Positions 752 to 53,879 of a stretch of DNA of 64,000 bases are shown in pieces. Position numbers and translations under genes: made by a program. This DNA is from a virus: IMG/VR virus record IMGVR_UViG_3300013426_000002, positions 32,001-96,000 of that record; one strand, written 5' to 3'. The notes below the pieces were generated by a model. It was not told the origin of the DNA. It saw only the letters and a list, made by a program, of their open reading frames with translations, and ran no database searches. Every line of letters starts with the position of its first letter. Within the stretch, counting starts at the first letter, position 1.

Positions 752-767
752 CTAATTAACCATAGCT

Positions 768-5741: not shown

Positions 5742-5760
5742 TTATTAACAAAAACTTTTC

Positions 5761-5790
5761 AGATTCTTTCAAATTCTATCAAATTCTTTC
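5761..5790. repeat. Three tandem 10-bp repeats, A(G/A)ATTCT(T/A)TC-type
   Basis: The units are agattctttc, aaattctatc and aaattctttc, head to tail. They lie in the 92-nt gap upstream of the Sak4-like ATPase gene. Confidence 0.6.
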
Positions 5791-5833
5791 GTAACTTATC
5801 AAACTACATCTGAAAAGGTAAAAACATCTTAAT

Positions 5834-8457: not shown

Positions 8458-8899
8458 CTATATAGTTAGTAATTTCGGAAGGATTAAAAATTTAAAGAAT
8501 AACAACTTTTTAAAACCACAAGATAATCGAAATGGTTATTTAAAAGTATGTTTATCCAAACATGGAAAGGTTAAACAATTTTTGATGCATAGATTAGTAG
8601 CAGAATTGTTTATAGATAATCCAAACAATTTACCACAAGTTAATCATAAAGATGAAAATAAGAAAAATAATAATTTTTCTAATCTAGAATGGTGCACTAA
8701 AAAGTATAACATGAATTATGGTAAATTAAAAAACTTTCATAAAAAAGAAATTGCAAAATATGAAAATGGATACTTTAAATGTAAGTATAATTCTTTGAAA
8801 GAAGCTGCAGAAATAAATAATTTATCTAAAAGTTCTATTAGTCGTTGTTGCAAAGGACTACAAAAAACATATGTTGGATTTACGTGGAAATATATTTAA
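8411..8899 (+). CDS. Free-standing HNH homing endonuclease
   Basis: 162 aa. The HNH core is HRLVAELFIDNPNNLPQVNHKDENKKNNNFSNLEW. The N-terminus has the NUMOD-like SNFGRIKN motif, and the C-terminus has a helix-turn-helix-like segment SLKEAAEINNLSKSSISRCCKG. Confidence 0.85.
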   Translation: MSSGNKEIWKKIEDYDYIVSNFGRIKNLKNNNFLKPQDNRNGYLKVCLSKHGKVKQFLMHRLVAELFIDNPNNLPQVNHKDENKKNNNFSNLEWCTKKYNMNYGKLKNFHKKEIAKYENGYFKCKYNSLKEAAEINNLSKSSISRCCKGLQKTYVGFTWKYI

Positions 8900-12527: not shown

Positions 12528-15500
12528 CTAAAAGATTGAAATCAAGTTATCATAATATTCTAACTTAGATCTTGGATCTCTTGCTTCATATATACTTCTT
12601 AGAGGAGTTGACTTAATTAAGGATCGTTGGAATCGGTTTAAACCACGATATGGTCCTCTATTTATTTCTTGAAATGGATCTTGCAACGCTACAGTAGTTA
12701 AGTCTCCCCAATACTGTAACGTAGACCAAGCTGCTGTAGGACTATTAAGCATATTAAATACTTCAATAGGTAACACATTACCACGAGTTTCCAAAGAGGC
12801 TCTTAAAGTAAGATATGCTGCTTCTTGTTTCCACCAATTATCCCTGTCATCATCTGCCATAGCACGTATTATGGAAGAAATCAACCAGAAACCCAAAGTA
12901 GAAAATAAAAATTCATATGTGACTCTCTTTAGGCAACCCTTTTCGTAATCATCTAATTCATCATAATGATCTTTATACAATTCTTTTAATTGATCAATCT
13001 TGCTTTTGTCAAAATAGTGTCTTTTTACATATTCATAAGCCGCAGGAATTTGCGCTTCATTCCACAATCCTGTAGAATAGTTGAATTGTCTCTTAGTTAA
13101 GAATTTTGTTTGCAGATTAACCAAAATAAAATTACGGTATATTAATAATAACTGACCAATCAAATTGGAATGTAATTTTGATTTATCCAAATCTGATAAC
13201 TGTGTGTCAATTCTAGTAGCAATTTGTTTAGTAGTGTTTTTTATTCTATTAGAAAGGTTTTCATCAACCACATTAGCATACTCTGGTTTTACTACTAATT
13301 GATTGTTTTTAACTTCAAAAGCATCAAAAAATGTGATATTTAATGCATTCCAAGCAGCTTTACCTTTTTTCTTATCTTTAAATCGTCTTAGAAATTGATT
13401 TTTATTTAAAAATTTACCAGTTTCAGGATCATATTTATTGAAATATGCAACAGATAGTGCTAGTTTACCCTTAGTGATTATATCACCTATTTCGTGACCA
13501 AAATACCAATAATGTTGATTTAGAGCTCGCAGTAAACGAGATTGGTTTAATTTACTAAATGTTTGTTCGTTGTCTCTAACTACACCCAAGTATTCAAGAT
13601 AACACAATACCTTGTTTTTATTATTGGCTTTACCTATGTTTTTAATCGCATCTGCGTATGCTGGTAGTAAAGTCTTCGTTGCTTTGGCAAGTTCTTCATT
13701 TCCAAAGTAAATGCCAGAAATTGCTTCCAACCTGTTTTGAATTTTATTAGTAATTAAACCTGTCAAGATAACGTTTAAGTTCTGTGATATACCTTGAATT
13801 CTGGTATATGCTGCTAAGTTACTAACCAATTTATCTATGCTTACTCTTGCATGCTTACCTTTTGGTAACGGTATATTAACTTCTTTAGCATCTTTTTCCA
13901 TACCGTAGACAAAACGATTCATCAAATCCTTCATTTTGTCATAAGTTTTACTTTCTACTCCAGATATTCTGCCACCCTTTCTATCTTTAAAATCCATTCT
14001 ACCAACAAAGTCCAAAGCTAACTCTAATTCAGGAGCAACTTCACTCATCTTTTCGTAGTTTACAGCCATTTTATAATAATGAATAATAGAACCTACTATA
14101 TCGTTAGTTATGGCATCAGGATTGTCTAACATTTTGATATACCTTGTGGGTATTAATTTCACCAAAGAACCATCAGATCTTTTAGCATTTTCTAACATAT
14201 ATCTGTCATCATCATCTTTTACTGTATAAAGATCATGTGCAGCATACGCTATACCACTTAAGAAGTTATCTTTACTACGTATTTGAGTCCACGCACCACC
14301 TTCAATTTGAGGTAATTTATATTTATTAGCATATCTCAAAAAACCTATCTTAGAATTGGATAAGTCCATTACATCTGTTAAAGCATCGTATAATGCTTTT
14401 AATTTAGGATCACTAACAATTTTGTTATAAGCAGCAGTGTTATCGAAGTACTTGATATTTGGTATTATTGTCTCACCACGATCTTCATATTTAGTAAATC
14501 TAGGATCATAAAATGGGGATTCTCTATCAATTTCTGCCCACGATTTATTTGGTATTCTTTCTACGTATTTTGATTTAAATTCATCCTTTGGAACTAGCTT
14601 ACGCCAAAAAGAAGCAGGTACGATGTCACCCCGAGAAGTATATCTTGCATTTACAGAGAACCACGCGTTAAATGCAGCTTCACCCTGTTTCTCCATATGT
14701 TCGTATTCTTCGTAGAATTTAGGGTTAATATTCCATTTAGCTATTTCCATTACTCTAGATTTTTTTTGTTTATCTCTATTTGCAATAGCTTCATCGGATA
14801 TCATTACATCATAAGTGTTTATCATAGATTTAACGTTTTCAGGCATAGCGTCTACGTTAAATGTACCATCTTCTCTTGCATATAATTTTAAAAGATTTTT
14901 TCTAGCATTCTCATACAATACTTGATTGTCAGATTTAATTGGATTTGAAGATAACATTTTAACGTCTTCCCAAAAATCTTCTTTTATTCTTTCAACAGAA
15001 TTTCTTTGTTCCCATTTTTCAAACAGCTCTGGAGAAAGATTCTTTTTAGCAGCTTCTCTGGCTTTGTTGTATTTCTCCATATTTGGTTTATAATTCAACT
15101 TAGCTCTAAGTTTTTTATTATATTGCTGCATTTCCTTGGCTATCTCCAAATCTAAACCTGCTTTTGTAGTGCCATCTGCATAAAAAGGATTTGCCAAATT
15201 ACGTCTACCATTTTCTAATTCTTGCAATTTGCCATAATCTTCATCGGATAATAATTCTCTATGTGGGTTACCATCTTTGTCCCTAGTTTTGTTAAGAAGT
15301 AGATTGATTTCCATATTAATTGTATCTCTTCTTGTTCTAGCTTCTTCACTAAGACTGTTGGTCAATTCGTAATATTCTGGTACAAATCTACGGATACTGT
15401 ATTTAGAATGCCATTTGTTATTCTCGGTATTCCAAATTTTTAATTGCTCTTTATTTAATAGAGCAGGTACTTCTGATAAGTCTTTATCTCCAAATCCTAA

Positions 15501-22786: not shown

Positions 22787-23658
22787 CTATATCTTCACTT
22801 TGATAGTGCTTCCCATTTCACCTTTCGGCTACACAGCGTGTGTGCGCTGACTCAAATCATATTGAATTTTATGAAGCATTGAAGGAATTTGTTCAACATA
22901 TGGTTTTACGATGTCTATAAACTTTATTCCTTCTTTTGTTCCACAGCATAAAGAATAACTGTTTTCTTTTTTACCTTCGTGAAACATGTAAAAATCAATA
23001 TTCCAAACTTCTTTAAAGTAATCTATTATTGTTTGTAATTCCTCTTTTGGCATACAGGTTGCAATTTTTATATAGAAACCGTGAACTTTACCATTTGTTT
23101 TTCTATAATTTATATGTCCATCATCCATATACCAGATTGCAATTCCTTTAGCATCTAGTCTGTTTAATAGTTTTCTATTTCCCAATTTTTTATTAGGTTT
23201 ATAAAAAACTCTTCGCAAGACTTTTATAAAAGGTATAATATTTAATTGAGTGTAATAAACTTTTTTACCTGTATTATAACCTTTAACACTGATGTATTCT
23301 TTTAAACCATTGTTTCGTAAACCAGCGTCTTTAAGTTGTTTTATTTTCCACTCAAGATAATCACGTTGTTCTTCACAATGACTTAATTTAAATACATTGT
23401 TATTGCTTATTGTTCCATCACCAAGTAAAAGAGCTATCAATAAATTTCTAGATTCTTTAGTTATTTTTGTTTTCATACTTGCTATCCATTTAGGAAGCTT
23501 CCATTGAGTATTAGTCGTTGAACCTTCCGATTAGTTATATAGATAACGATCGGCTTGGCTGCTGGTTGCCCAATCCCTTGGATTTTTACTACACTTAGTA
23601 CCTTAGGCTCTAAGGGGTTTCCAGCAATTAAAGAAGTTTTGTTTCGACTATTGTGTTA
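22787..23658 (-). mobile_element. Group-I-like intron (about 872-884 nt) with a LAGLIDADG ORF, inserted in the RNA polymerase metal-binding motif
   Basis: The 5' exon ends ..GAC UUC GAU (23659). UUCGAU can pair with intron GUCGAA (rc of 23643-23648), 10 nt downstream, giving a P1 helix with U.G at the splice site. The flanks 23477-23658 and 22787-22828 are non-coding and GC-richer. The 3' boundary is ambiguous: 22787 gives an intron ending in G, whereas 22775 gives the direct DFD|G join. Confidence 0.65.
22829..23476 (-). CDS. LAGLIDADG homing endonuclease, intron-encoded
   Basis: 215 aa with the motifs LLIALLLGDGTIS and IAIWYMDDGHINY. It lies between the two halves of the RNA polymerase reading frame. 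Confidence 0.85.
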   Translation of the reverse strand: MKTKITKESRNLLIALLLGDGTISNNNVFKLSHCEEQRDYLEWKIKQLKDAGLRNNGLKEYISVKGYNTGKKVYYTQLNIIPFIKVLRRVFYKPNKKLGNRKLLNRLDAKGIAIWYMDDGHINYRKTNGKVHGFYIKIATCMPKEELQTIIDYFKEVWNIDFYMFHEGKKENSYSLCCGTKEGIKFIDIVKPYVEQIPSMLHKIQYDLSQRTHAV

Positions 23659-43767: not shown

Positions 43768-45924
43768 TTATTTTGCTTTTAGGGTTTGTAAATAGATGTA
43801 GGCTTTTATCATATCTTCTTTGGATAGGTATTTGCCATTAAAGAAAGCAATATTCTTTAGAGCCAATTGAGCATATTTATCGCCATTAATTCCAATGTTT
43901 AGTGAACCAACACTTGATTCAGTTGTTTGTTCTTCCCTTTGTAAGTATTCTACCCAATTGCTATCATAAACTCTACCGTCAGAACAAAATGCTTTCAATG
44001 ATTTTGTAGGGTAATTTTTCACTTTCATAGTAGAATTTAAGAACAACTGAGTTCCTGTAACAGCATTATAAACAAAGAAGGAATTTGGTTTGACTATTCC
44101 GGCTGCCACGTTAACACTGTCCAGAAGTTCCCACTCTCCTACAACGGTAAAATCTTTATTTACATTAAATTTTGCTGATTCAATTTTATCATCCACCCCG
44201 TCAGTCACTAAATAACCTTCGTGATCGGGGATTTGCTCAACAGTAACAGTAGTACCTTCTGCATTTGGAACGGCGCAATACGTCCTAATATATAGTCGAA
44301 GTTGATTACCTGAACCTGTCATAGTGTGATCAATCTGATAAGTACCATCTTTATCAAATTCATATATAATATTAGAATCTCCCGTATACCCCTCCATTAC
44401 ACGAACTATCCAATTCGTTGTCAATCCTGTAATCTTTAACTTGAATTGAAATTTCGTTCCAATTGAAACTTCGGATGAGTATAAATTACAAGTAGATATC
44501 GATTGATTGACTGGCATTACAGCTACAAATTTGTTATATTGTTTGCTTACGTTTGTAGCAGCTCCGTTATCTATACCCCATTCATTCCAATTGTAAGCAT
44601 ACTCCCCATATCCACTATTCCCAGCAAACCCAAAGTTTGACAAAACAAGGTTATTACCATTACCCGTAATGTTGGCAATGGTAGCTCTACCTGTGTCTTC
44701 GTTGGTTTTGCCTGTTACCGTCCAAGCCTGATCAAAGAACAACCAAGGATATTCTTTTTTATACCAATTGAGGACTTTTGTGTCTTCTTCGTCGGTTGTG
44801 AAATGACCGTTACAAATTACTTGTCCAGCGATGGCAGCTTTGGCGTATTCCATCTTAGAACTCGTTGTCCATAGATAATATAATCCCGGATTTTCAACCA
44901 AAGAATTAGCATCTACAACAATTGTCTCCCCTGTTAACAAGTTTTTTGCAACCATTTGAGTAGGCGTTCTTTTACAAGCAATAAGATTAAATCCATTAGA
45001 GAATTCTACAATTGCGCGTGTTCCTGCGGAATAATACATAAGCTTGTTCAGATTTTGATATTGAACATAAAAATCTTTTTTATAAGCCTTTCCACACAGT
45101 AACATATTCCTTGCCGGATCTTCCTGAAACGGAATAAATGCAGTATATACAGTATATGTATCTTCAAAATCCAAATCCTTTTCGGTAACTGCACAATCAT
45201 CTACACCGTCACCTATGATAAAGCCGAGGTAATAAGGAAGCTGCTCAATGGTGATAGGAGTTGTTAACGTCAAAGGATTCTCTATTGTACCTTGCGAAGA
45301 AACAGCAAATATATAAATTAATCCATCTTCTTGATTTGGAATATCAACATCATAAATGCCATCTGTGTTAATGGTAATCCTATTATCAAAATCCTTACTA
45401 CTATACATTCTTAGCAATCGGATTTCGCCGCTATTTATAGAATCACTAACTCCTGTTATTTTTAATCGACACTTAAATTGTGCCAATCTGATAACGGCAT
45501 TTACTCTGGAATTATCTATTTTCTCTATATACAAGGTGTCAGAAGAAATTTTAGCATTGACATTAGCCCCCGAATAATTTAAAATAGATTTTTTTGTAAA
45601 ATCATAATCATACCCATTACATCCAGACATTCCACTCCAAGCGAAATTCTTGAAAGTCAAGAACCTGCCCTTTCCATCTGCATCCTCCAAACTTGGATTC
45701 TTGGACATCTGTTCATTGGTGAGCCCTTTAAAGCTCCATCTCGTTACATCACCAGGTAATGTTGGGAAGGCATCTTCAGGAGTATATAGACCGTATTTAC
45801 GTTGAGCCTGTTCCTCCATCAGTTTAATGTAATCTGTATACCATTGCTTATAATCTAATACAGGACCTGCTACACTTATAGACTTATCAGTATCTTCTAC
45901 ATGTGTTACATAATGTTTCTTCAT
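43768..45924 (-). CDS. Tail fibre/spike protein with two LamG (concanavalin-like) jelly-roll modules
   Basis: An internal duplication is visible: TIEQLPYYLGFIIGDGVDDCAVTE versus TVEQIPDHEGYLVTDGVDDKIESA. DG-x-DD-x-hydrophobic is the hallmark start of Laminin_G_3-type domains. Confidence 0.5.
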   Translation of the reverse strand: MKKHYVTHVEDTDKSISVAGPVLDYKQWYTDYIKLMEEQAQRKYGLYTPEDAFPTLPGDVTRWSFKGLTNEQMSKNPSLEDADGKGRFLTFKNFAWSGMSGCNGYDYDFTKKSILNYSGANVNAKISSDTLYIEKIDNSRVNAVIRLAQFKCRLKITGVSDSINSGEIRLLRMYSSKDFDNRITINTDGIYDVDIPNQEDGLIYIFAVSSQGTIENPLTLTTPITIEQLPYYLGFIIGDGVDDCAVTEKDLDFEDTYTVYTAFIPFQEDPARNMLLCGKAYKKDFYVQYQNLNKLMYYSAGTRAIVEFSNGFNLIACKRTPTQMVAKNLLTGETIVVDANSLVENPGLYYLWTTSSKMEYAKAAIAGQVICNGHFTTDEEDTKVLNWYKKEYPWLFFDQAWTVTGKTNEDTGRATIANITGNGNNLVLSNFGFAGNSGYGEYAYNWNEWGIDNGAATNVSKQYNKFVAVMPVNQSISTCNLYSSEVSIGTKFQFKLKITGLTTNWIVRVMEGYTGDSNIIYEFDKDGTYQIDHTMTGSGNQLRLYIRTYCAVPNAEGTTVTVEQIPDHEGYLVTDGVDDKIESAKFNVNKDFTVVGEWELLDSVNVAAGIVKPNSFFVYNAVTGTQLFLNSTMKVKNYPTKSLKAFCSDGRVYDSNWVEYLQREEQTTESSVGSLNIGINGDKYAQLALKNIAFFNGKYLSKEDMIKAYIYLQTLKAK

Positions 45925-45926
45925 AC

Positions 45927-46385
45927 TTATAAGTTATTTATTGTTATTGTTATTTTCTCATTATTATTTGTTGCCTTTTGAAGCATTGGTAGCAATTTGT
46001 TATAAGCTGCCGTAGAATTAGATATCCAATCTTCAGTAATACCATCCCATGTACCTACTAATATACATCCTTCTGTGTCAGCTGTTTTATTCCCGGTATG
46101 TATACGTATACCTAAGAAATGAGGTACATTAAGTATTTCAGGCATGATGCGTTTAAAACGATTAGAATAGCTTAATTTCACTTCATACGTACCAGCAGGT
46201 ACAGCAGTATTACCATATACTTTTTCTTTACATTTGCATTCTTTACCTTTAGGTGTGTTTGGGCAGGTTTCAGGTAATGGTCTTACTGGATCTTCAAGGG
46301 TATCACATATATAAATACCATCTACATGCAATTCCCCAATCGTGTATTTGTTAGTACGAAATATTCTATCTAATACTAATTCCAT
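45927..46385 (-). CDS. DUF5675-like small protein
   Basis: 152 aa. The pattern YTIGELHVDGIYICDTLEDPVR...TAVPAGTYEVKLSYSNRFKRIMPEILNVPHFLGIRIHTGN...DTEGCILVG matches the DUF5675 family as I remember it. Its function is unknown. Confidence 0.4.
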   Translation of the reverse strand: MELVLDRIFRTNKYTIGELHVDGIYICDTLEDPVRPLPETCPNTPKGKECKCKEKVYGNTAVPAGTYEVKLSYSNRFKRIMPEILNVPHFLGIRIHTGNKTADTEGCILVGTWDGITEDWISNSTAAYNKLLPMLQKATNNNEKITITINNL

Positions 46386-46720
46386 TAGATTATACTTTTA
46401 GCTACACTTGCTTTCAATTTAGATCTAAAGTCTAAGAAGTCTTCATATCTCTTCTTACAGTTTTCATCTTCTGTTAAACCTAATTGAAATGCAAAATAAT
46501 CATTTAACATCTTTAATTGATAGTTAACATCCCAATTGTCGATCAATACATTTCTGATAATAGAATCATCATTTACATTTGATTCATTAATTATTACCTG
46601 TTCACATTCATAATACGTAGAATCACCATCTTTTACTTCTTTAATATTGTAATTGAAAGCGTAAGAATGATCATCTAACTTCTGTATCATTTCAGGACGT
46701 TCATCATACTGTGATTTCAT
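46385..46720 (-). CDS. Hypothetical acidic protein
   Basis: 111-aa ORF with an ATGA-type junction to the downstream gene. It is Asp/Glu/Asn-rich and has no motif. Confidence 0.5.
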   Translation of the reverse strand: MKSQYDERPEMIQKLDDHSYAFNYNIKEVKDGDSTYYECEQVIINESNVNDDSIIRNVLIDNWDVNYQLKMLNDYFAFQLGLTEDENCKKRYEDFLDFRSKLKASVAKSII

Positions 46721-46858
46721 ATCTATTATTCTTTTTATAAAGTATTACAAAAGGATAACCTTTTAAATTACTTTCTATTAATAACCTTAATAATCTTGTA
46801 CTTTTATTTTATTAGTTATTTTTTGGCAAGAGCCAAGGTCATGTCGAAACCCGATAAA

Positions 46859-46929
46859 AATTTTATGAGAGCTGTAATTAGCATTTGTAGAAGCTACTGA
46901 ATTATTCGAATTCACGTAACCGAGGCTAG
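46859..46929 (-). repeat. DGR template repeat (TR) candidate
   Basis: It is a non-coding copy of the target gene's 3' end, 141 nt downstream of the VR. It is collinear over 69-71 nt. All but one of the differences from the VR fall on adenines of this copy. It is rich in AAT, TAC, AGC and ACA codons. Confidence 0.8.
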
Positions 46930-46987
46930 CAAAAGAGCCAATATACGCAAGACCACTGCTTTTCACCCGACATCAACCTGTTTACAT

Positions 46988-48478
46988 TTAAAGTCTACAA
47001 ACTAGACGAGAGCCGCAATAAGCAGTAGCAGAAGCCACCGAATAAAGCGAAGACACGCAGCCGAGGCCAGAAAGATTGTTAAAAGTCACAGAACCACCGT
47101 AGTACATCGTTTTTAAGGAAGAACTAGCAGTAGCAGTATGAAAGTAATCACATCTTCCCGTAGTGGAACTACCATTTGCAATTTTTGGAATAACTGTACC
47201 TAAATACGTATCACCTACATAATTTGACTCTCTCGGTAATTGACCAAGTTCTACAAAATTGTTTGTGATTGCATCACCATAGTCAGCTTCACTTTTTGCA
47301 ATGTAAATTGTACTTGTACCACCATCTTCATCAGTCTTAATATCAAAGATTATACCATCTATATTTTTGAAAATATGACCAAACGGATTTTCAATACCTC
47401 TGTATCTTGGTACTTTCACTTTTACAGCACTGGTATCAAAAGAACTTGGTAAAGTGTATTCAACCTCTCCTGTGTTGTTACCAAGACTATCTGAAGTACC
47501 ACAAGGTACGAGAGGATAATAATTATTAAATGCACTCCACTTAGCATCTGTTATCGTTGATACGACACTTCCCAGTCCACCTTGTTTAAAACCATCTGTA
47601 GTCAATGCATTATTAAAGGCTAACTGACAATTCCAATTTGCATATTCAATTGAATACAACAACCATATCGTATTTACGGCAGTAAAGTCAAACATGTTCC
47701 AATTGGTACCAGCAGCTCTATTTCTAGCATATTTTCTAAAATTTGCTCTAGAAGTTGCAGTCAGTGGCATACCGAGTTGAGTGTTTTCAGCATCATCTAT
47801 TGCAGCATTATTGTTACCACCTCTAAATTCAGCAGTGGTATTAACTACTGAAGCTAATTTCAAAGTAGTAGCATCAGTTCTATCAACAGTTGCTTCGTAA
47901 GCTGAAACATATTGTTTCTTAACTAAAGTATATCCTTCCAATGGGTACTCAGAAATTCTCATACTGTCCACACCATTCTCTGAAGAGAATTTAGTATAGA
48001 ATTCAGGAATTTCTATCATTACCATACCATCAGAACCATCTTTTACAATAGTTGTTCCATCTTCGTTTGCTGTCCAATCATTATTAAAGTAATGATTAAC
48101 TGTACCATCATCAGCCAGAGTACATCCTCTCATCTTATTCTGGATTGGAAGAGAACGATGTAAATCAAGGTTACCTATTCTAGTTAATACTGGATTTAAA
48201 GAACCAGACTGCCAAGATACACCATAAGAATACAGAGCTTCTGCATTAGGTATATCTGTAACATCTAATTTAACCTGATCCAATAACTTATTGTTTACCA
48301 AAACCCATTCCTTACCATTGAAGTATTTCAAATCTCCGCCATATGGATTTGATGCGAGATCTGCCCAATACTTAACAGATGCAGGATTAGGTTTGATTGT
48401 GCTTCCTAATATATCGTATTTATTGTTATAAGTATTCATACATGTATAAAATAAAAAAGGTTGACTAGAAATAGCCAA
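46988..48478 (-). CDS. Receptor-binding / tail-fibre protein with a C-type-lectin (FGE-sulfatase-like) C-terminal domain; DGR target
   Basis: 496 aa. VPRYRGIENPFGHIFKNIDGIIF resembles the RG.EN..GN.W.W.DG signature of DGR variable proteins. The VR occupies codons 4 to 26 counted back from the C-terminus. Confidence 0.7.
   Translation of the reverse strand: MAISSQPFLFYTCMNTYNNKYDILGSTIKPNPASVKYWADLASNPYGGDLKYFNGKEWVLVNNKLLDQVKLDVTDIPNAEALYSYGVSWQSGSLNPVLTRIGNLDLHRSLPIQNKMRGCTLADDGTVNHYFNNDWTANEDGTTIVKDGSDGMVMIEIPEFYTKFSSENGVDSMRISEYPLEGYTLVKKQYVSAYEATVDRTDATTLKLASVVNTTAEFRGGNNNAAIDDAENTQLGMPLTATSRANFRKYARNRAAGTNWNMFDFTAVNTIWLLYSIEYANWNCQLAFNNALTTDGFKQGGLGSVVSTITDAKWSAFNNYYPLVPCGTSDSLGNNTGEVEYTLPSSFDTSAVKVKVPRYRGIENPFGHIFKNIDGIIFDIKTDEDGGTSTIYIAKSEADYGDAITNNFVELGQLPRESNYVGDTYLGTVIPKIANGSSTTGRCDYFHTATASSSLKTMYYGGSVTFNNLSGLGCVSSLYSVASATAYCGSRLVCRL
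47000..47070 (-). repeat. DGR variable repeat (VR) candidate
   Basis: In the sense strand this region encodes GLGCVSSLYSVASATAYCGSRLV, compared with SLGYVNSNNSVASTNANYSSHKI for the TR. There are 20 mismatches in 69 nt, and 19 are opposite TR adenines. Confidence 0.8.
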
Positions 48479-48487
48479 CCTTTGTGT

Positions 48488-49051
48488 TTAGATTTCTTTT
48501 AATTCATCCCCAATAAGAGGATCTGATGCATTTATCTCAGGACGAACATTTGGCAGATTTTGTAAAAGTTTTTTAAGCTCTTTCACTTCAGCTTTTAATT
48601 CATCAAGTTCTTTGAAATCTTTTGTCACATTGGTTGTTATGTCCGAGTTTGCATTAAGTAGTTTTAAGATGTCTTCACATCTCCTCATCTCCTCATCGTA
48701 TTTCATTACGCTTTCCTTCTTGATTTTACAGTCATTATATGATTGTTTAACCATATTAATAATCTGTTCTTTATTGGTAGCTAATGTTAAACCAATGGTA
48801 GAATCGGTCATTAAATCTTTATCTTCAGATACTGACAGTTTTCTTTGTTCACCATCACAAGAAATTACTAAATCAACTAATTTACGTCTATTCTGCATAG
48901 GCATTGGGAATTGACTTGGTGGTAATGGTTCTTCGTAGGGTTTTGATACACTTACTACTCTACCTAAACTGTAAGCAGTACTCTTTTTAAAAGTACCTGT
49001 AATCTCGAGTACGTGTATGTTTGTACCCGGTGTTAATTGAGAGAATGTCAT
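48488..49051 (-). CDS. Hypothetical protein with C-terminal coiled coil
   Basis: 187 aa. The C-terminus DFKELDELKAEVKELKKLLQNL is heptad-like. No other motif was found. Confidence 0.5.
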   Translation of the reverse strand: MTFSQLTPGTNIHVLEITGTFKKSTAYSLGRVVSVSKPYEEPLPPSQFPMPMQNRRKLVDLVISCDGEQRKLSVSEDKDLMTDSTIGLTLATNKEQIINMVKQSYNDCKIKKESVMKYDEEMRRCEDILKLLNANSDITTNVTKDFKELDELKAEVKELKKLLQNLPNVRPEINASDPLIGDELKEI

Positions 49052-49062
49052 ATCTTTAAGTT

Positions 49063-49100
49063 TTAAAAAGATATGGGCAGTTGTTACTCGCTGCCCATAT
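49063..49100 (-). terminator. Intrinsic terminator after the 134-aa gene
   Basis: ATATGGGCAG (49071-49080) pairs with CTGCCCATAT (49091-49100). On the - strand the hairpin is followed by CTTTTTAAAA. Confidence 0.7.
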
Positions 49101-49115
49101 ACTTTAGTTAATATA

Positions 49116-49520
49116 TTAAGCAGCAGTAGCTACGGTATAATGATTCATAAACTGGATGATATTGTCACACTTATTGTAGTAGACCCAATATCTATTACCG
49201 GCTGTTATTTCAGAACCTAACAATGGAGTACTATCGCCTTTGACAACTGGTACATTTCTATTGTTTGAAGCAGTACTTACAGAACCTGTAGTAGATACAA
49301 ATACTGGTAAACTAGCACTTGCTGCAGCAGGAGTGTTTCTTACTTCAAATACAAATACACCTTCTCTTGGTAATCTACACCAGACTTTGGGGCAAATACC
49401 CAACACTGTAGATTCTGTTGAATCACTAACACTTATTGTAGTAATCTTTGGTATTACTTGGTCTAATACTCTTACAGTATTATTACGACCAAAGTAAGGA
49501 TAAAATACGAAAGGATACAT
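49116..49520 (-). CDS. Abundant small virion-protein candidate (134 aa)
   Basis: The likely start is the ATG at 49520 (MYPFVFYPYFG), preceded by AAAGGAGGT, rather than the ORF-track start at 49547, which overlaps the upstream gene. The protein is beta-rich with a Ser/Thr/Val/Ala composition, and a strong terminator lies downstream. Confidence 0.55.
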   Translation of the reverse strand: MYPFVFYPYFGRNNTVRVLDQVIPKITTISVSDSTESTVLGICPKVWCRLPREGVFVFEVRNTPAAASASLPVFVSTTGSVSTASNNRNVPVVKGDSTPLLGSEITAGNRYWVYYNKCDNIIQFMNHYTVATAA

Positions 49521-49524
49521 AATT

Positions 49525-49533
49525 ACCTCCTTT
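49525..49533 (-). promoter_or_regulatory. Consensus Shine-Dalgarno (AAAGGAGGT), 4 nt upstream of the ATG at 49520
   Basis: The - strand reads aaaggaggt-aatt-ATG. None of the other gene starts I inspected in the window has a comparable SD. Confidence 0.6.
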
Positions 49534-49537
49534 CTTA

Positions 49538-50464
49538 TTAACCACAACAGCTATCACCGTATCCGTAACCGTTGTAACCATAACCTGTTAACCCACCATT
49601 ACATCCATAAGGATTACATGTAATATAAGCGGGTACTGGAACAGGTCTAATCTGATTTACAATATTCTGTGTCTGTTGCTGAGACAATGCGGACATTTGA
49701 TAAGCCTGTTTTTCATCACGCAAATTGTCAATCTTATTCTGCATTTCTCTCATTTCCAACTGACAGAACTTGTCATTGATGATCTGAGTTTGTGCATCAA
49801 TCTTAGCACCAATTACATTGAATTTAGTTGCATTATCAGACATTAAAGTGTTAAAGCCTGAAGTAATAGCATTCTGTAATGTATTAGTCTGCTGACAAAT
49901 TGACAATCTGTTATCAGCACTCATTTGTGTTAAGTTCAAATTAACAGCATCTATAGAGCGCTGAGTTGTGCAGCAACAATCACTAATTGCTTTGATAACG
50001 TTGCAATCACCTGCGTTAACAGCGTTGATTACTCTTTCTGCAGAGAAACCTATTTCACCACTAACTTTACCAATTGCATTCTGGATTGAACACAAAGCGT
50101 TGTCAATTGATTTAACATCACAATTCAAGTTAGTAGACAGAGTACTAATAGCGTCTTTATTTCCCTGAATAGCTTGCATCAACAAATCGGTATTGTTATT
50201 CTGATTACCCATGGCGGCTAATCTAGCAAAATCAGAATTAGTTTCAGCTTGGTTACCGCGATTAAAACCATTACCACCCCACATCCAGAAGAGTAAGATG
50301 ATAAAAATCCACCACCAGCCACCGTTACCGCCGAAGCCGTTACCATTGTTCATCATAGCCATTAAAGCATTGGGATCTAAACCTTTATTAGCATTCTGCA
50401 TTAAAGCTGCAAGACCTGCGTCAAAGCCACGATCTTGTACAATTATTCTTTCGTTTTCTAACAT
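49538..50464 (-). CDS. Membrane-anchored protein with Trp-rich TM helix and Gly/Tyr/Cys C-terminus
   Basis: 308 aa. It contains NGNGFGGNGGWWWIFIILLFWMWGGNGFNRGN, Cys pairs (DCCCTT) and a Gln-rich coiled region. It ends GYGYNGYGYGDSCCG. Confidence 0.5.
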   Translation of the reverse strand: MLENERIIVQDRGFDAGLAALMQNANKGLDPNALMAMMNNGNGFGGNGGWWWIFIILLFWMWGGNGFNRGNQAETNSDFARLAAMGNQNNNTDLLMQAIQGNKDAISTLSTNLNCDVKSIDNALCSIQNAIGKVSGEIGFSAERVINAVNAGDCNVIKAISDCCCTTQRSIDAVNLNLTQMSADNRLSICQQTNTLQNAITSGFNTLMSDNATKFNVIGAKIDAQTQIINDKFCQLEMREMQNKIDNLRDEKQAYQMSALSQQQTQNIVNQIRPVPVPAYITCNPYGCNGGLTGYGYNGYGYGDSCCG

Positions 50465-50502
50465 AATATTAATTTTTTAATTGATTTAAAATCTTTGATT
50501 GA

Positions 50503-51255
50503 TTAGAAATATCTGATAGATGTGTTACGTGTGTCTCTATTCTGAGCCATACGCATTTCTTTTTCACGTTCTTCACGTTCTTTTTTCATGCGTTTTGCTT
50601 CCTCAGAATAATTACTATATCCATATTCAGAACGTGATTCATAAGGATACTCTCTTCTAGATCTGTAGTATCTGTCGTAATCACGATATTCTGGTTCTTC
50701 GTAACGACTATAATAATCACCCTTATGATACTCGTGTTCATAAGCTTTGTAATCATTATCATCATCGTCACACATTATATAAACATAGTAATGCCACATT
50801 TTACCTTCTGAAATATCTTTGTCACAAAGCCAAGCCTTGGTAAGTTCTGCAAAATGTTTAGTATTAGTACCGCCTGTCATAGCTACTACAGCTTTATAAA
50901 AATCTGAGTAGATCATGTTCATAGCTACGTACCAATCCCATTTGTTATGTTTCTCTGATTTCAAATTTATGCCAAGTTGATTGGCAACGGACGTTGTCTC
51001 TTCAACCGTCCAGTGAGGACCTGTAGTTCCATCCTCGTTTTCCATCTCTTCTACAGCATATTGTGCATGTTCCTCATCAAAATGAGGTCCATTAATTGCC
51101 TCATAAGCATTTGCACAGAGTTCTGATTTTAGTATTCTAAAACCTTTCTCAAGCAAATTATCTTCATGCTGATCCATAGCTTTACCTAATTTAGTTAAGG
51201 CTTCAGTAGGAGAAGGATGGCGTTTGATTTGATCTATTATTTTACTTAAATGCAT
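50503..51255 (-). CDS. Hypothetical protein with Tyr/Arg/Glu-rich tail
   Basis: 250 aa. The C-terminus reads DYYSRYEEPEYRDYDRYYRSRREYPYESRSEYGYSNYSEEAKRMKKEREEREKEMR. Confidence 0.5.
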   Translation of the reverse strand: MHLSKIIDQIKRHPSPTEALTKLGKAMDQHEDNLLEKGFRILKSELCANAYEAINGPHFDEEHAQYAVEEMENEDGTTGPHWTVEETTSVANQLGINLKSEKHNKWDWYVAMNMIYSDFYKAVVAMTGGTNTKHFAELTKAWLCDKDISEGKMWHYYVYIMCDDDDNDYKAYEHEYHKGDYYSRYEEPEYRDYDRYYRSRREYPYESRSEYGYSNYSEEAKRMKKEREEREKEMRMAQNRDTRNTSIRYF

Positions 51256-51302
51256 AGTTTCAATTTGTTTATTGATTAATACTAAATTGAAATGTTTTGC
51301 AA

Positions 51303-51902
51303 TTATTTTGATAATTTGATAACTCGTGTATCGGTTACACGTATTAAGTCATTAGAATTGATAATTTTGTAAGATTCTAGTTTGTCTTTTTTAAAGTCAA
51401 AATGAATTAACCGTTGAAACCAGTTTTTATATTTCTTTCTATATACTTTTTCTTCGGTTATAAACAAATCTTGATGATTGTATATTTCTGGTATACAAGT
51501 TAAGATTGAATCTTTCCTTGATATTTTGATGGTAGTCAATTGATTTGATTGAAGCTCAGTATAAAAATCTCTATCTACAGGTATCTTCTTTACTATAGTA
51601 TCTGTCAACAGTGTTGACACCCTCATTGCTTCTTTTAACTTTTTATCTTTTATTTTAAGTTGATCTTGTACTTTTGATAACTCTTGTATCAGACTATCAT
51701 TAGAATGTTTAAAATCTGATATGTCTAATTGTAATACTCTATTAGCTTCATATTGATTATTTAGCATTGATTGATAAGCTTCAATATTGTTTTTAGCTTT
51801 ACTTAGGTAGTTATCTAAACTATTTACTTTAGACCTTAATACATAATTAGTAACACCTAAGTAAGATATAAGTCCTATTATCAACACTCTAAGATAGCTC
51901 AT
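51303..51902 (-). CDS. Spanin-like / membrane-anchored coiled-coil protein
   Basis: The likely start is the ATG at 51902 (MSYLRVLIIGLISYLGVTNYVL), 1 nt after the holin stop. The ORF-track start at 51980 overlaps the holin by 77 nt. The protein has an N-terminal TM helix followed by a coiled coil (LSKVQDQLKIKDKKLKEAM). Confidence 0.45.
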   Translation of the reverse strand: MSYLRVLIIGLISYLGVTNYVLRSKVNSLDNYLSKAKNNIEAYQSMLNNQYEANRVLQLDISDFKHSNDSLIQELSKVQDQLKIKDKKLKEAMRVSTLLTDTIVKKIPVDRDFYTELQSNQLTTIKISRKDSILTCIPEIYNHQDLFITEEKVYRKKYKNWFQRLIHFDFKKDKLESYKIINSNDLIRVTDTRVIKLSK

Positions 51903-51903
51903 A

Positions 51904-52449
51904 TTATTTAATCTTTTTAACCAATTTCTTAATCTTTGGTAAATCTTCTTTATCAATTGTAATATCCAAGTACTTCTCACCTTTTTTCTTTAAGAATTTA
52001 GAGAATAATTTCCAAGGTCCTGTGGGATCTAATGTATGAAGATTTTCAATCATTGACCACAGTTCTACACCGGCAATCAAACCTGCAAAACCTTCTACTA
52101 GATGAGCACTAAATGAAGTTAGTATATATTGATCAACAAGATGACCACAACTAATCATTAGCGTACTAAAACCTAATTTCTTTATAGTTGCCCAAGCCCT
52201 TCTAGATTCTATTTTATCTCCCTTACTTAAGGATACACGGATACCTAGAATCATATCAATAATAATTAACACACCTACTGAAACAATAGGTATCCAAATA
52301 GGCATAAAGAAAGTACTCAATATACTTGCTAAACTTGTACTTACACAAGTAAGTAATTTAGCAGGTCCATCGCTTACTATCTCTCTAAAATAATTCATTG
52401 TAGAAACACTTGATGCTTTTATAATTATCTCATTTAATATACGGTACAT
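51904..52449 (-). CDS. Holin-like membrane protein
   Basis: 181 aa with 3-4 hydrophobic helices, including FFMPIWIPIVSVGVLIIIDMILGI, GFSTLMISCGHLV and GFAGLIAGVELWSMIENL. The ELWSMIEN segment resembles the conserved E..SI.EN motif of a common phage holin family. Confidence 0.5.
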   Translation of the reverse strand: MYRILNEIIIKASSVSTMNYFREIVSDGPAKLLTCVSTSLASILSTFFMPIWIPIVSVGVLIIIDMILGIRVSLSKGDKIESRRAWATIKKLGFSTLMISCGHLVDQYILTSFSAHLVEGFAGLIAGVELWSMIENLHTLDPTGPWKLFSKFLKKKGEKYLDITIDKEDLPKIKKLVKKIK

Positions 52450-52512: not shown

Positions 52513-52619
52513 CTGAAAAATTATATGATACTTAGAGCTTGATATATTGGTAAACGGTGCCAATACTCAAAAGTTCTCTTTTAAAATATCACTATTATTG
52601 TTCTAATAGCGGTTATTAA

Positions 52620-53879
52620 TTATGTAGTTTCCACTTCTTTGTTACCTTTGTAAGGTAGTAAGGCTAAAGGAACATTATTATATGCGCTGGTTTTGGATGC
52701 AGAAACCACAACTTTAGTACTCATATCATATGCGTATTCTGTTGTCGGAGTACTTCCAGTCGAAGTCCAGTAATATGTGATACCTGTGGTATTGAAATTA
52801 TTTAATCCAATTAAAGCAGAATAGGAATTGATTGTGTCTACATTTTCTACTATTTTACTCCATTCACCAAGAGATCCTACAAAACCTGTAGAACCATTGC
52901 CGATTGAAAAATTTGTAGCATATGATGCTGCGTATTCTGTACTCTGTTTTAATAGTAACTTTGTATTAATTCTTCCAGCATAATCTTTTAAAGCGTAGTC
53001 GGAATTTCCAACAGCATAAAGCATATTTGCATTACTTGCTGGGCCTACACCTGCATATTTAGTTCTCTCTTTAGAGATCAGAAATTGAGTTTCATCTGTT
53101 ACTAAAGCAACACCTATTGCGTCAGATGATGCTTTACCAGAAGCTGTCCATTGAGTATCTGTGTAATAATTATTATCTTTATCACATATATAAATTCCAT
53201 TATCTATATGATTGTATTTCACTGTACAAAATGGACGTACCCAGCCAATAGAACTCTTATACGGTGAACTGATATAAACATTTGTACTGGCATCCATTTG
53301 ATAAGTCGAATTCAAATCTTTTTGAGTAGAGCTTATCACAGGATCTTCACCTGTATCTTCTAATTCTGTTCCACCTACGTTCTGTAAAGCATCCGTTAAA
53401 TCCGTAAAACTAACGCAAGAAGCCATTAATTGACCTAAGGCAGGTAAATACCAACTACCTGCAGGGAATCCTTCTGTAGAATATTCAGCACAAGCTTTAG
53501 CAGCTAAAGCAGAGTTGCCCAATTGTGCAATGATTTTCTCAGTATTGGTTTTACCATCAAAGTCAAGTCTAGCTACAGCTTTGTCTGTAGTTGTAACTAT
53601 ATCTGAAATTAGAGTGCCAGTGCCACCAAACGTAGTTTTACTTGTAGAAGTGTTGTGCAATGCCATAAAGTCAAATTCCATACTACGTACATCTGTAATA
53701 ACACCAACACAAGTTTTAGAGCCATCGTGCAAAGTTGACCAAGTCCCATCACTATATACGTAATCATACACTTTTGGTCTATAACGAACCTCATGTGGAT
53801 AAATTTTAGTACTACCCAAATACATTGCCGTTACAGGAGTACTACCAACATATGCTTTTGTAATATCTAAATTTGTCAT
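52620..53879 (-). CDS. Tail-fibre-associated protein with two DUF1566/Lcl-C-like modules
   Basis: 419 aa. [13 protein letters not shown] ... VRPFCTV, and then [10 protein letters not shown] ... YYWTSTG, fit the W.LP...EL / YW(S/T)S / VR.V pattern of DUF1566. The start overlaps the upstream gene as ATGA. Confidence 0.5.

What the first reader, a model, noticed from the sequence alone, without database searches (positions are those of the whole stretch)
46859..47070. DGR-type adenine-specific mutagenesis signature: VR at the 3' end of the C-type-lectin fibre gene and TR 141 nt downstream
On the sense (-) strand, 47068->47000 (VR, in frame) and 46927->46859 (TR, non-coding) are collinear with no gaps. 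Of 69 aligned positions 20 differ. Nineteen of these lie where the downstream copy has A. That accounts for 19 of its 23 adenines (A->G 9, A->T 6, A->C 4). Only 1 of 46 non-adenine positions differs. The template is built from AAT (x5), TAC (x2), AGC (x2) and ACA codons. These are the stop-free, adenine-loaded codons typical of DGR templates. The template reading frame continues ..KIFIGFR, the conserved end of the CLec/FGE fold. The target has the RGIENPFG..DG signature of DGR variable proteins. Upstream of the core the two copies are related only at the protein level and with gaps, so the mutagenised window is sharply bounded.
Basis: seen in the sequence. Interest (0 to 1): 0.85.

Follow-up and report, generated by a model that had tools for sequence, protein, structure and literature searches.

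The report
Dead DGR cassette in crAss-like phage
The adenine-specific repeat pair is real and was written by a diversity-generating retroelement in a crAss-like gut phage tail fibre, but this genome has lost the reverse transcriptase, so the pair is a frozen relic of a kind already reported in crAss-like phages.

Summary
The observation reproduces exactly. At offset 141, 20 of 69 positions differ and 19 of these are at template adenines (Fisher p=3.5e-12). The window is a Culoivirus-like (Suoliviridae) crAss-like phage, 100% identical to Logan contig SRR1747032_1782.

Relatives (cr55_1, L018, L020, seven IMG/VR loci) carry a complete cassette at the same spot: fibre gene with VR, a 102-nt TR, an RT-17-like RNA, then a DGR-type RT. 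Their TR is constant and nearly every contig has its own VR.

In the window a 1,188-bp deletion removed most of the RT-17-like RNA and RT codons 1-380. Only the last 33 RT codons remain. No RT was found anywhere in the reconstructed ~100.8-kb genome.

The 5' 42 nt of the window's TR have lost 11 adenines compared with a sister TR. This is why the VR/TR match looks "sharply bounded".

The fibre protein is an exact-sequence singleton seen on 6-9 contigs, with no VR variants.

Verdict: a genuine DGR footprint in a cassette that cannot work on its own and is very probably inactive. Incomplete DGR cassettes are already reported in crAss-like phages, including Suoliviridae. Two side leads remain: adenine-specific corruption of TRs, and shared RT deletions paired with different VRs.

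The parts
46988..48439 (-). Target gene: tail fibre / tail-collar-fibre-like protein of 483 aa (the mechanical ORF runs from TTG at 48478). The C-terminal ~290 aa form a receptor-binding domain with a DGR variable-protein (C-type-lectin-like) fold.
   Evidence: phrog_5302 'tail protein', E 1.2e-100. No Pfam, NCBIfam or PDB sequence hit. The exact 483-aa product is in public collections. AlphaFold2 model of residues 190-483: pLDDT 75.3, pTM 0.78. Top PDB fold hit is TaqVP 5vf4, E 2.3e-3, prob 0.99, TMq 0.45. BFVD hits include the cr55_1 tail fibre, 'tail collar fiber' proteins and a TvpA-like protein.
47000..47101 (-). Variable repeat (VR), full ancestral extent of 34 codons (YGGSVTFNNLSGLGCVSSLYSVASATAYCGSRLV).
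   Evidence: Against its own TR: 23/27 A and 12/75 non-A positions differ over 102 nt; the 3' 54 nt give 17/21 A and 0/33 non-A. Against the intact sister TR (L017): 31/38 A and 4/64 non-A, p=3e-15.
46961..46987 (-). VR-TR spacer holding the block AGGTTGATGTC..GT.AAAA, which is conserved in all relatives. Its function is untested; it may be the 5' part or promoter region of the TR transcript.
   Evidence: Conserved across 18 loci and used as the alignment anchor.
46919..46960 (-). 5' part of the template repeat, corrupted. Eleven of the ancestral adenines are replaced (A>G, A>T, A>C), plus one C>T, so this part no longer templates the VR.
   Evidence: Window TR vs L017 TR: 11/38 A and 1/64 non-A positions differ, all within this segment, p=5.9e-5. 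The same TR is present in L003 and L004.
46859..46918 (-). 3' part of the template repeat, intact and identical to the L017 TR.
   Evidence: There are 0 mismatches to L017 from 46918 down to about 45800.
46796..46840 (-). Remnant of the structured RNA that lies between TR and RT in relatives (Rfam RT-17-like). Only the first hairpin (46824-46835, UGGC-UCUU-GCCA) survives. About 48 model positions, including the second helix, are deleted.
   Evidence: Rfam RF03020, gathering score 40.4 bits: L018 36.7 bits (E 1.8e-5 in a 500-nt search), cr55_1 32.9 bits, window 23.5 bits with the internal part missing.
46804..46806 (.). Deletion junction with 2-nt microhomology. 1,188 bp are missing relative to L018 (its positions 7675-8862): the 3' two-thirds of the RT-17-like RNA, the RT start codon and RT codons 1-380.
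   Evidence: The identical junction occurs in L003, L004 and L017.
46707..46805 (-). Remnant of the reverse transcriptase gene: its last 33 codons, overlapping the start of the next gene.
   Evidence: tblastn with L018 RT residues 381-413: 88% identity, E 3.6e-12. cr55_1 RT residues 408-439: 44% identity.
46385..46720 (-). Conserved 111-aa gene that follows the RT in complete cassettes. It is a synteny anchor. It has no Avd (the DGR accessory protein) signature and no detected function.
   Evidence: phrog_11557, E 3.7e-16; no Pfam or NCBIfam hit. Same position in cr55_1, L017 and L018.
45927..46385 (-). DUF5675 gene, a synteny anchor downstream of the cassette.
   Evidence: PF18925, E 4.6e-30. 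Same position in all relatives.

Best explanation
This is the fossil of a diversity-generating retroelement.

Inferred history. In an ancestor of this Culoivirus-like crAss phage, a DGR reverse transcriptase copied the ~102-nt template repeat RNA into cDNA, misincorporating opposite adenines. That cDNA overwrote the last 34 codons of the tail-fibre gene. This wrote the 19-of-23-adenine signature seen today. The mechanism is taken from the BPP-1 paradigm and from the state of the relatives; it was not observed here.

What the sequence shows. A 1,188-bp deletion has removed the RT gene and most of the structured RNA between TR and RT. The TR's 5' 42 nt have lost 11 adenines. No RT is encoded anywhere in the genome.

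Consequence (inferred). The cassette cannot diversify by itself. The VR is now an ordinary, fixed C-terminal receptor-binding tip, and the TR is a decaying non-coding relic.
For: (1) The signature is real and far beyond chance.

(2) It is homologous to complete cassettes. cr55_1 (NC_055869), L018, L020, L010-L016 and L019 have fibre-VR, TR, an RT-17-like RNA and an RT at the same locus. Their VRs differ from their own TR at 21-30 of 27-40 adenines. Non-adenine differences number 0-2, except 5 in L015 and 11 in L019, the two loci whose TR is itself adenine-altered.

(3) Those cassettes are active in the population. The TR is constant within each lineage. Of 117 cr55-type fibre proteins, 114 have distinct VR peptides, and the variable columns coincide with adenine-containing TR codons.

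(4) The RT is deleted in the window. Alignment A1 and breakpoint mapping show this, and only RT residues 381-413 remain.

(5) No RT is present in the whole genome. The window equals SRR1747032_1782 positions 1009-65008. L031 (same contig), L035 and L026 (overlaps 100% identical) close the ~100.8-kb circle. tblastn with two RTs finds nothing, and L035 has no stop-free stretch of 200 aa or more.

(6) The RNA between TR and RT is truncated. In BPP-1 the cDNA primer is an adenine in that spacer (PMC5703328), and Rfam RT motifs were proposed to play this role (PMC5737381).

(7) The TR's 5' part is corrupted.

(8) The VR is frozen. The exact 483-aa protein occurs on 6-9 contigs (ENA ERZ808285, Logan SRR1747030 and SRR1747032, JGI). 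It is a singleton 90% cluster, and the next relative is only 86% identical. L003 and L004 have identical VR, TR and junction.

(9) Decay is recurrent. L027 and L028/L029 carry two further independent deletions of the TR 3' half plus RT. Incomplete cassettes are reported for Alpha, Epsilon and Suoliviridae crAss-like phages (PMC7290462, PMC11054128).
Against: VR invariance is weaker evidence than it looks. The contigs with the identical VR are also 99.9-100% identical in their flanks, and three come from one run series (SRR17470xx). They may be one recently spread clone.

Two pairs of genomes share an RT deletion yet differ in the VR mainly at template-adenine sites. These are window vs L017, and L028 vs L029 (15 of 17 VR differences at TR adenines against 3.2% background divergence). 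This could mean diversification after RT loss, although recombination explains at least the window/L017 case.

About 17.7 kb of the genome closure (L035 and the part of L026 outside the window's contig) comes from a sibling run's contig, not the window's own.

The need for the deleted RNA helix is inferred from BPP-1, not tested in this family.

No read-level data were available.
Confidence: 0.85

Rival explanations
1. The cassette is non-autonomous but still alive. A closely related RT-positive crAss-like phage (L018-type or cr55-type) co-infecting the same host supplies the RT, or its own mutagenised cDNA, in trans, and the window's VR is still occasionally rewritten.
For: The VR 3' end (GGCTCTCGTCTAGTTT) is identical to that of the RT-positive L018 and L020. 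Genomes sharing the same RT deletion carry VRs that differ mostly at template-adenine sites: L028 vs L029, 15 of 17 differences, and window vs L017. RT-positive relatives are abundant in gut metagenomes, with thousands of fibre variants.
Against: No VR variant of the window-type fibre exists among about 15 billion proteins, although the backbone was sampled 6-9 times. The window's VR fits its own or the L017-type TR (4 non-A differences) better than the L018 TR (about 10 non-A differences by direct comparison of the sequences). The window/L017 VR difference lies inside a 0.9-kb recombination patch with about 17% ordinary divergence. The window's own TR RNA lacks the second helix of the RT-17-like element.
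Confidence: 0.1
2. The repeat pair is an ordinary tandem duplication of the gene's 3' end that diverged by normal mutation, or a chance similarity, with no retroelement involved.
For: No RT is present in the genome. The upstream part of the pair differs at non-adenine positions too.
Against: Differences fall at 19 of 23 adenines against 1 of 46 other positions, p=3.5e-12. The locus is orthologous to RT-bearing cassettes, and a recognisable RT C-terminal remnant sits at the expected place (E 3.6e-12). The upstream mismatches become adenine-specific when the intact sister TR is used as reference (31/38 vs 4/64).
Confidence: 0.01
3. The missing RT is an assembly artefact: repeats collapsed or contigs were joined wrongly, and the real genome has a full cassette.
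For: VR and TR are similar repeats 141 nt apart, and metagenome assemblers can mis-thread repeats.
Against: The identical junction is found in independent assemblies made with different pipelines and samples: ENA SPAdes contigs from ERZ808285 and ERZ26859170, and Logan contigs from SRR1747030 and SRR1747032. The breakpoints lie in unique sequence, not in the repeats. The contig length of about 100.8 kb is in the range of related genomes.
Confidence: 0.01

Closest known systems
DGR cassette of uncultured crAss-like phage cr55_1 (NC_055869, Culoivirus intestinalis, Suoliviridae), plus metagenomic relatives L018 and L020
   Same: Orthologous locus and gene order: fibre, VR, conserved spacer, TR, hairpin GACCTTGGCTCTTGCC, then the 111-aa gene and DUF5675. 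The fibre is 72-78% identical. VR length, frame and GSRLV ending are the same.
   Different: Relatives keep a 413-442-aa DGR-type RT and a complete RT-17-like RNA. Their TR has 37-40 adenines and their VR differs in nearly every contig. The window lacks the RT, has a truncated RNA, has a TR with 27 adenines, and has a fixed VR.
Incomplete DGR cassettes of crAss-like phages (Morozova et al. 2020, PMC7290462; Epsilon crAss-like phages, PMC11054128)
   Same: A tail-collar-fibre target with a C-terminal VR. Cassettes occur in all stages of decay: 16% complete, 73% incomplete with truncated RT and/or target, with or without VR and TR. PMC11054128 states that complete or incomplete cassettes were previously found in Intestiviridae, Suoliviridae and Zeta phages.
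   Different: Those descriptions concern other genera. The specific 1,188-bp deletion, the shared junction in two sub-lineages and the adenine-specific TR corruption were not found in the papers I read.
Bordetella phage BPP-1 DGR (mtd-avd-TR-brt), the mechanistic paradigm
   Same: Adenine-specific TR-to-VR information transfer into the C-terminus of a receptor-binding protein with a C-type-lectin-type fold. A structured spacer RNA lies between TR and RT; in BPP-1 it provides the priming adenine (PMC5703328) and matches Rfam RT-10 (PMC5737381).
   Different: No Avd gene was recognised here or in relatives. There is no GC-rich IMH (the initiation-of-mutagenic-homing site that marks the VR 3' end); the 3' ends are GGCTCTCGTCTAGTT vs AGCTCTCATAAAATT. 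The TR follows the target directly. The RNA motif is RT-17-like rather than RT-10. In the window the RT is absent.
Thermus aquaticus DGR variable protein TaqVP (PDB 5vf4) and Treponema TvpA-like proteins
   Same: Best structural matches of the modelled C-terminal domain. The variable residues sit at the extreme C-terminus.
   Different: Similarity is only fold-level (12% identity, TM 0.45/0.37). The window domain belongs to a large phage-specific family (1,339 representatives at 50% identity) that has no Pfam model.

Membership tests
Diversity-generating retroelement (functional cassette) | A VR/TR repeat pair whose differences are confined to template adenines | tested here: met
   19/23 A vs 1/46 non-A positions differ over the 69-nt core, p=3.5e-12. 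31/38 vs 4/64 against the intact sister TR.
Diversity-generating retroelement (functional cassette) | A DGR-type reverse transcriptase (IGxxxSQ and YxDD motifs) encoded next to the TR or elsewhere in the same genome | tested here: not met
   Only the last 33 codons remain, at 46707-46805. tblastn with cr55_1 and L018 RTs finds nothing in the window or in the loci that close the ~100.8-kb genome. Pfam scans of 30 window ORFs and the precomputed Pfam lists of flanking loci show no RVT_1. Relatives do have it: RVT_1, IGNYLSQ and YADD.
Diversity-generating retroelement (functional cassette) | An intact, adenine-rich, invariant template repeat | tested here: not met
   The 3' 60 nt are intact. The 5' 42 nt have lost 11 adenines relative to the L017 TR, and the VR no longer matches them at non-adenine positions (12/42 over the 5' 48 nt).
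Diversity-generating retroelement (functional cassette) | The cis RNA element between TR and RT that is used for cDNA priming | tested here: not met
   The RT-17-like motif is full length in L018 (36.7 bits) and cr55_1 (32.9 bits), both below the 40.4-bit gathering score. In the window only hairpin 1 is left (23.5 bits, 48 model positions missing). Its role in priming is inferred from BPP-1 (PMC5703328), not tested.
Diversity-generating retroelement (functional cassette) | The VR is hypervariable among closely related genomes while the TR is constant | tested here: not met
   Window lineage: one VR on 6-9 contigs, a singleton protein cluster. RT-positive relatives meet the criterion, with 114 of 117 VR peptides distinct. 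Read-level variation could not be tested.
Diversity-generating retroelement (functional cassette) | The VR lies at the C-terminus of a ligand-binding protein with a C-type-lectin / FGE-like fold | tested here: inconclusive
   The model has pLDDT 75.3. The only meaningful PDB hit is the DGR variable protein TaqVP (prob 0.99, but TM only 0.45); Mtd hits are weak. BFVD hits to tail-collar-fibre and TvpA-like proteins are strong. There are no sequence-level hits to Pfam or PDB. The result is consistent with the fold but not proven.
Diversity-generating retroelement (functional cassette) | An accessory protein (Avd) and an IMH/IMH* pair that directs homing to the VR (IMH = initiation-of-mutagenic-homing site at the VR 3' end; IMH* = its TR counterpart) | tested here: inconclusive
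   The neighbouring genes have no Avd-like Pfam, NCBIfam or PHROG hit. Avd-less DGRs are known in crAss-like phages (PMC7290462).
Crassvirales, Suoliviridae, Culoivirus-like phage | Nucleotide similarity and gene order shared with classified members, plus crAss-specific structural proteins | tested here: met
   80-85% nucleotide identity to cr1_1, cr55_1, cr10_1 and cr50_1. Taxonomy lines. CrAss_Ring_1, CrAss_Ring_2 and Crass_capsid Pfam hits. Same gene order.
Rfam RF03020 (RT-17 RNA) | A covariance-model score at or above the 40.4-bit gathering threshold | tested here: not met
   Relatives score 36.7 and 32.9 bits and the window 23.5 bits. I describe the element as RT-17-like, not as a member.

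The most novel reading that the evidence does not exclude
Template repeats in this phage clade are occasionally hit by the DGR's own adenine mutagenesis. Mutagenised cDNA (or a VR-type copy) recombines into the TR itself and erases adenines. Three independent TRs differ from their lineage consensus almost only at adenines: window 11/38 A vs 1/64 non-A; L019 11/38 vs 0/64; L015 7/40 vs 0/62. The changes form internal patches that do not copy the resident VR. This would be a self-inflicted route of DGR decay that accompanies the recurrent RT loss. A second, less likely reading is that RT-less cassettes are still rewritten in trans by co-infecting RT-positive relatives.
Probability: 0.4. Interest if true: 0.5.

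Novelty: new member of a known kind. Interest (0 to 1): 0.3.

Why it matters
For annotation, a textbook adenine-specific VR/TR signature does not show that a DGR works. Here the signature outlived the enzyme, and tools or readers that score only the repeat pair would overcall activity.

For biology, the window and its relatives form a natural series at one locus: a complete cassette, an RT deletion with an intact TR (L017), an RT deletion with a half-corrupted TR (window), deletions of the TR 3' half plus most of the RT (L027-L029), and near-total loss (cr1_1). This series could be used to ask how often gut crAss-like phages switch receptor-tip hypervariation off, and whether a frozen tip marks specialisation on one host surface.

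The general phenomenon, incomplete DGR cassettes in crAss-like phages including Suoliviridae, is already published. A specialist would not be surprised by the main result.

Tried and rejected
- Sequence searches for the target found nothing. Pfam and NCBIfam gave no hits for the target or for ten diverse homologues of its C-terminal domain. PDB sequence and profile searches gave no hits.
- The AlphaFold2 model of the full-length fibre from a shallow alignment was unusable (pLDDT 29.6). A second model of the C-terminal domain, built from a more diverse alignment, worked.
- An exact search for the deletion junction found nothing in IMG/VR or JGI metagenomes. The window-type genome is present only in the ENA and Logan data.
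- A look-up of the window's first ORF (32-643) failed because it is not on record.
- I considered whether the 111-aa gene after the RT is an Avd-like accessory protein. No family hit supports this.
- I considered whether the window's TR 5' part was converted from its own VR. I rejected this because the two sequences differ.
- I considered that the VR difference between window and L017 proves activity after the deletion. I rejected this because the difference sits in a contiguous 46919-47800 patch with about 17% ordinary divergence, flanked by kilobases with 0 mismatches. That is a recombination patch.
- Covariation analysis of the RT-17-like RNA was not attempted because the available sequences are too similar to one another.
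Full report
**1. The observation**

I read the region and recomputed the alignment.
- On the minus strand, 47068->47000 and 46927->46859 align without gaps at an offset of 141 nt.
- 20 of 69 positions differ. 19 lie at the 23 adenines of the downstream copy (A>G 9, A>T 6, A>C 4). One lies at the other 46 positions (T>C).
- Fisher's exact test gives p=3.5e-12.
- The downstream copy with its adenines masked (51 nt) matches only itself and the upstream copy in the whole window, with 0 mismatches. 100 shuffles gave 0 matches.
- The upstream copy is in frame at the 3' end of a 483-aa gene (46988..48439, minus strand). The downstream copy is intergenic.

**2. What the window is**

Megablast places the region in crAss-like phages of the genus Culoivirus (Suoliviridae, Boorivirinae), at 80-85% identity to cr1_1, cr55_1, cr10_1 and cr50_1. 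Pfam finds crAss tail-ring and capsid proteins. The window is 100% identical to positions 1009-65008 of Logan contig SRR1747032_1782, which is 100,770 bp long.

**3. The orthologous locus in relatives is a complete DGR**

In cr55_1 the gene order is: tail protein (572 aa), a 144-nt intergenic stretch, a reverse transcriptase, a 111-aa gene, then DUF5675. The intergenic stretch holds a template repeat of about 102 nt that matches the last 34 codons of the tail protein except at adenines.

The same holds for seven IMG/VR loci (L010-L016), for L019, and for the closer relatives L018 and L020 (fibre 78% identical).
- The L018 RT (413 aa) hits Pfam RVT_1.
- It carries IGNYLSQ and YADD, which to my knowledge are the DGR-type RT motifs.
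- Its best NCBIfam similarity is to group II intron RTs, below the curated cut-off.

Across these loci the TR is constant within a lineage, while each contig has its own VR. VRs differ from their own TR at 21-30 of 27-40 adenines. Non-adenine differences number 0-2 in all loci except L015 (5) and L019 (11), the two whose TR is itself altered (see section 6). Among 117 cr55-type fibre proteins from the protein search, 114 have distinct C-terminal peptides, and the variable columns coincide with TR codons that contain adenine. The element is therefore active in the RT-positive population.

Between TR and RT these relatives carry a structured RNA that resembles Rfam RT-17 (RF03020). It scores 36.7 bits in L018 and 32.9 bits in cr55_1, against a gathering score of 40.4.
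- Weinberg et al. (PMC5737381) described the RT-1 to RT-19 motifs next to RT genes. They placed RT-10 between TR and brt of phage BPP-1.
- Naorem et al. (PMC5703328) showed that in BPP-1 the cDNA is primed by an adenine in that spacer.

**4. In the window the enzyme is gone**

Alignment with cr55_1 and L018 shows that homology runs from the VR through the TR and the first hairpin of the RT-17-like RNA (GACCTTGGCTCTTGCCAAAAAATAACTAATAAAATA). At window position 46805/46806 it jumps to the last 33 codons of the RT.
- 1,188 bp are missing relative to L018.
- tblastn confirms the remnant: L018 RT residues 381-413 at 88% identity, E 3.6e-12.
- Rfam sees only the first hairpin, with 48 model positions absent.
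- No other RT was found in the window by tblastn or by Pfam scans of 30 ORFs.

I then closed the genome. L031 extends the window's own contig to position 83,047. L035 and L026, from the sibling run SRR1747053, overlap L031 and the window at 100% identity and complete a circle of about 100.7 kb. tblastn with both RTs finds nothing, and L035 contains no stop-free stretch of 200 aa or more. This phage has no reverse transcriptase.

**5. The deletion is real and shared**

The identical junction, VR and TR occur in L003 (ENA ERZ808285, a 103.7-kb contig) and L004 (Logan SRR1747030). L003 is 99.9% identical to the window over 9.9 kb, and none of its 10 mismatches lie near the cassette.

The same junction also occurs in L017 (ENA ERZ26859170, a 101-kb contig), whose fibre is 86% identical. 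An assembly artefact is therefore excluded.

**6. Why the match looks "sharply bounded"**

L017 has an intact 102-nt TR with 38 adenines. Its VR differs from it at 27 adenines and one other position.
- The window's TR is identical to L017's from 46918 downstream.
- In 46919-46960 it differs at 11 adenine positions and one other (p=5.9e-5).

The window's TR has itself been adenine-mutated in its 5' 42 nt. As a result, the window's VR and TR are there two independent derivatives of the ancestral template. They disagree at 12 of 42 non-adenine positions over the 5' 48 nt. Against the L017 TR the window's VR shows 31/38 adenine and 4/64 other differences.

Window and L017 have 0 mismatches across 45800-46918 and 48600-52400. 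They are about 17% diverged in one contiguous patch, 46919-47800. That patch covers the fibre's C-terminal domain, the VR and the TR 5' part. This is a recombination patch whose right edge lies inside the TR. It explains why two genomes with the same RT deletion have different VRs, without invoking activity after the deletion.

**7. Is the VR still changing?**

The exact 483-aa protein is on 6-9 contigs from ENA, Logan and JGI. It forms a singleton 90% cluster, and the nearest other protein is 86% identical. No VR variant of this backbone exists in the collection, whereas RT-positive relatives show a new VR in almost every contig.

It is not decisive, because the contigs may represent one recently spread clone (identical flanks) and I could not map reads.

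**8. The target protein**

The protein matches PHROG 5302 "tail protein". It has no Pfam, NCBIfam or PDB sequence match. Its C-terminal 294 aa belong to a large phage family with 1,339 representatives at 50% identity, typically ending in GSRLCF or GSRLV. That family has no Pfam model.

A first AlphaFold2 model was useless. A model of the C-terminal domain reached pLDDT 75.3 and pTM 0.78.
- Its only meaningful PDB match is the Thermus aquaticus DGR variable protein TaqVP (5vf4): E 2.3e-3, probability 0.99, TM 0.45. Weak Mtd hits rank lower.
- In BFVD it matches the cr55_1 tail fibre, other crAss-like proteins, many "tail collar fiber" proteins and a TvpA-like protein.

The C-type-lectin-type fold is therefore plausible but shown only at moderate confidence.

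**9. Decay is recurrent**

Three more IMG/VR loci of the cr55 type carry two other deletions that remove the TR 3' half, the RNA element and most of the RT. L027 has one of them. L028 and L029 share the other. cr1_1 retains only what looks like an N-terminal fragment of the fibre.

The literature reports the same pattern.
- Morozova et al. found 16% complete and 73% incomplete cassettes in genus I crAss-like phages (PMC7290462).
- The Epsilon crAss study reports fragmented or deleted RT genes. It states that complete or incomplete cassettes were previously found in Intestiviridae, Suoliviridae and Zeta phages (PMC11054128).
- The Zeta study raises the question of whether such cassettes still operate (PMC12386605).

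**10. Mechanism and verdict**

Shown:
- the adenine-specific VR/TR pair;
- its orthology to active cassettes;
- the RT deletion and the RNA truncation;
- the TR corruption;
- the absence of any RT in the genome;
- the absence of VR variants.

Inferred:
- the signature was written by mutagenic retrohoming before the deletion;
- the cassette is now inert and the fibre tip is fixed.

Confidence in this explanation is about 0.85. The main rival is trans-complementation by co-infecting RT-positive relatives, at about 0.1. It is kept alive by L028 and L029, which share a deletion yet differ at 17 VR positions, 15 of them at template adenines, against 3.2% background divergence.

The finding is a new instance of a known kind, so I score interest at 0.3. 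The most novel lead is the adenine-specific corruption of TRs in three independent lineages (window, L015, L019; p from 1e-3 to 7e-6). This suggests that the element sometimes mutagenises its own template.

Noticed in passing
L015 (IMGVR_UViG_3300045988_055963) and L019 (ERZ27244926 k141_128604), TR regions: Two RT-positive relatives have TRs that differ from their lineage consensus only at adenines: L015 7/40 A vs 0/62 non-A; L019 11/38 vs 0/64. The changes form internal patches. In L019 they do not copy the resident VR, and that VR then disagrees with its own TR at 11 non-adenine positions. This suggests the TR itself is occasionally adenine-mutagenised.
   Followed up: partly
L027, L028, L029 (IMG/VR contigs): cr55-type loci carry two further independent deletions that remove the TR 3' half, the RT-17-like RNA and most of the RT. 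L028 and L029 share one deletion and are 96.8% identical overall. Their VRs nevertheless differ at 17 positions, 15 of them template-adenine sites. Either diversification occurred in trans after RT loss, or recombination moved the deletion or the VR.
   Followed up: partly
L002 (cr1_1, NC_055873) 5489-5998, gp066: The 169-aa 'hypothetical protein' at the cassette position contains GDLKYFNGKDWVYVN, the N-terminal motif of the fibre. cr1_1 seems to keep only an N-terminal fragment of the target gene and has no VR, TR, RT or 111-aa gene.
   Followed up: no
L001 (cr55_1) 8040-8133: The annotated RT start (MTLALAKKQIIK...) lies inside the RT-17-like RNA motif. The L018 gene call starts about 90 nt further down, at MKRISN, which corresponds to MKRVSN in cr55_1. 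The GenBank RT start in cr55_1 is probably set too far upstream.
   Followed up: partly
window 52600-52999 (419-aa gene 52620..53879) and 43768-45924 (718-aa gene): These are further mosaic patches between otherwise identical genomes. There are 42 mismatches to L017 within 52600-52999. All 10 mismatches to L003 lie at 44623-44710. The 718-aa gene is replaced by 730-aa and 679-aa versions in L003 and L017. Tail-module genes are being exchanged by recombination.
   Followed up: no
window 3546-4211, 8411-8899, 22829-23476; L031 6330-9998 and 15521-16399: The genome has many homing-endonuclease-type genes: two LAGLIDADG, one HNH/NUMOD4, and one GIY-YIG next to the capsid gene. It also has a 1,222-aa protein with Hom_end_hint (intein) domains at the position expected for the large terminase.
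   Followed up: no
window 12528-18362 (1,944-aa ORF): The precomputed Pfam list shows an ART-PolyVal domain in this giant protein of the block of very large minus-strand genes.
   Followed up: no
L006 (IMGVR_UViG_3300045988_069781) 399-1400: A more distant crAss-like contig encodes an RT only 46% identical to the cr55_1 RT, about 5 kb from a fibre whose N-terminus is 55% identical to the window's. It may be a second DGR lineage in related phages.
   Followed up: no
window 680-752: A single tRNA-Val (CAC) gene lies between the first two ORFs of the window.
   Followed up: no
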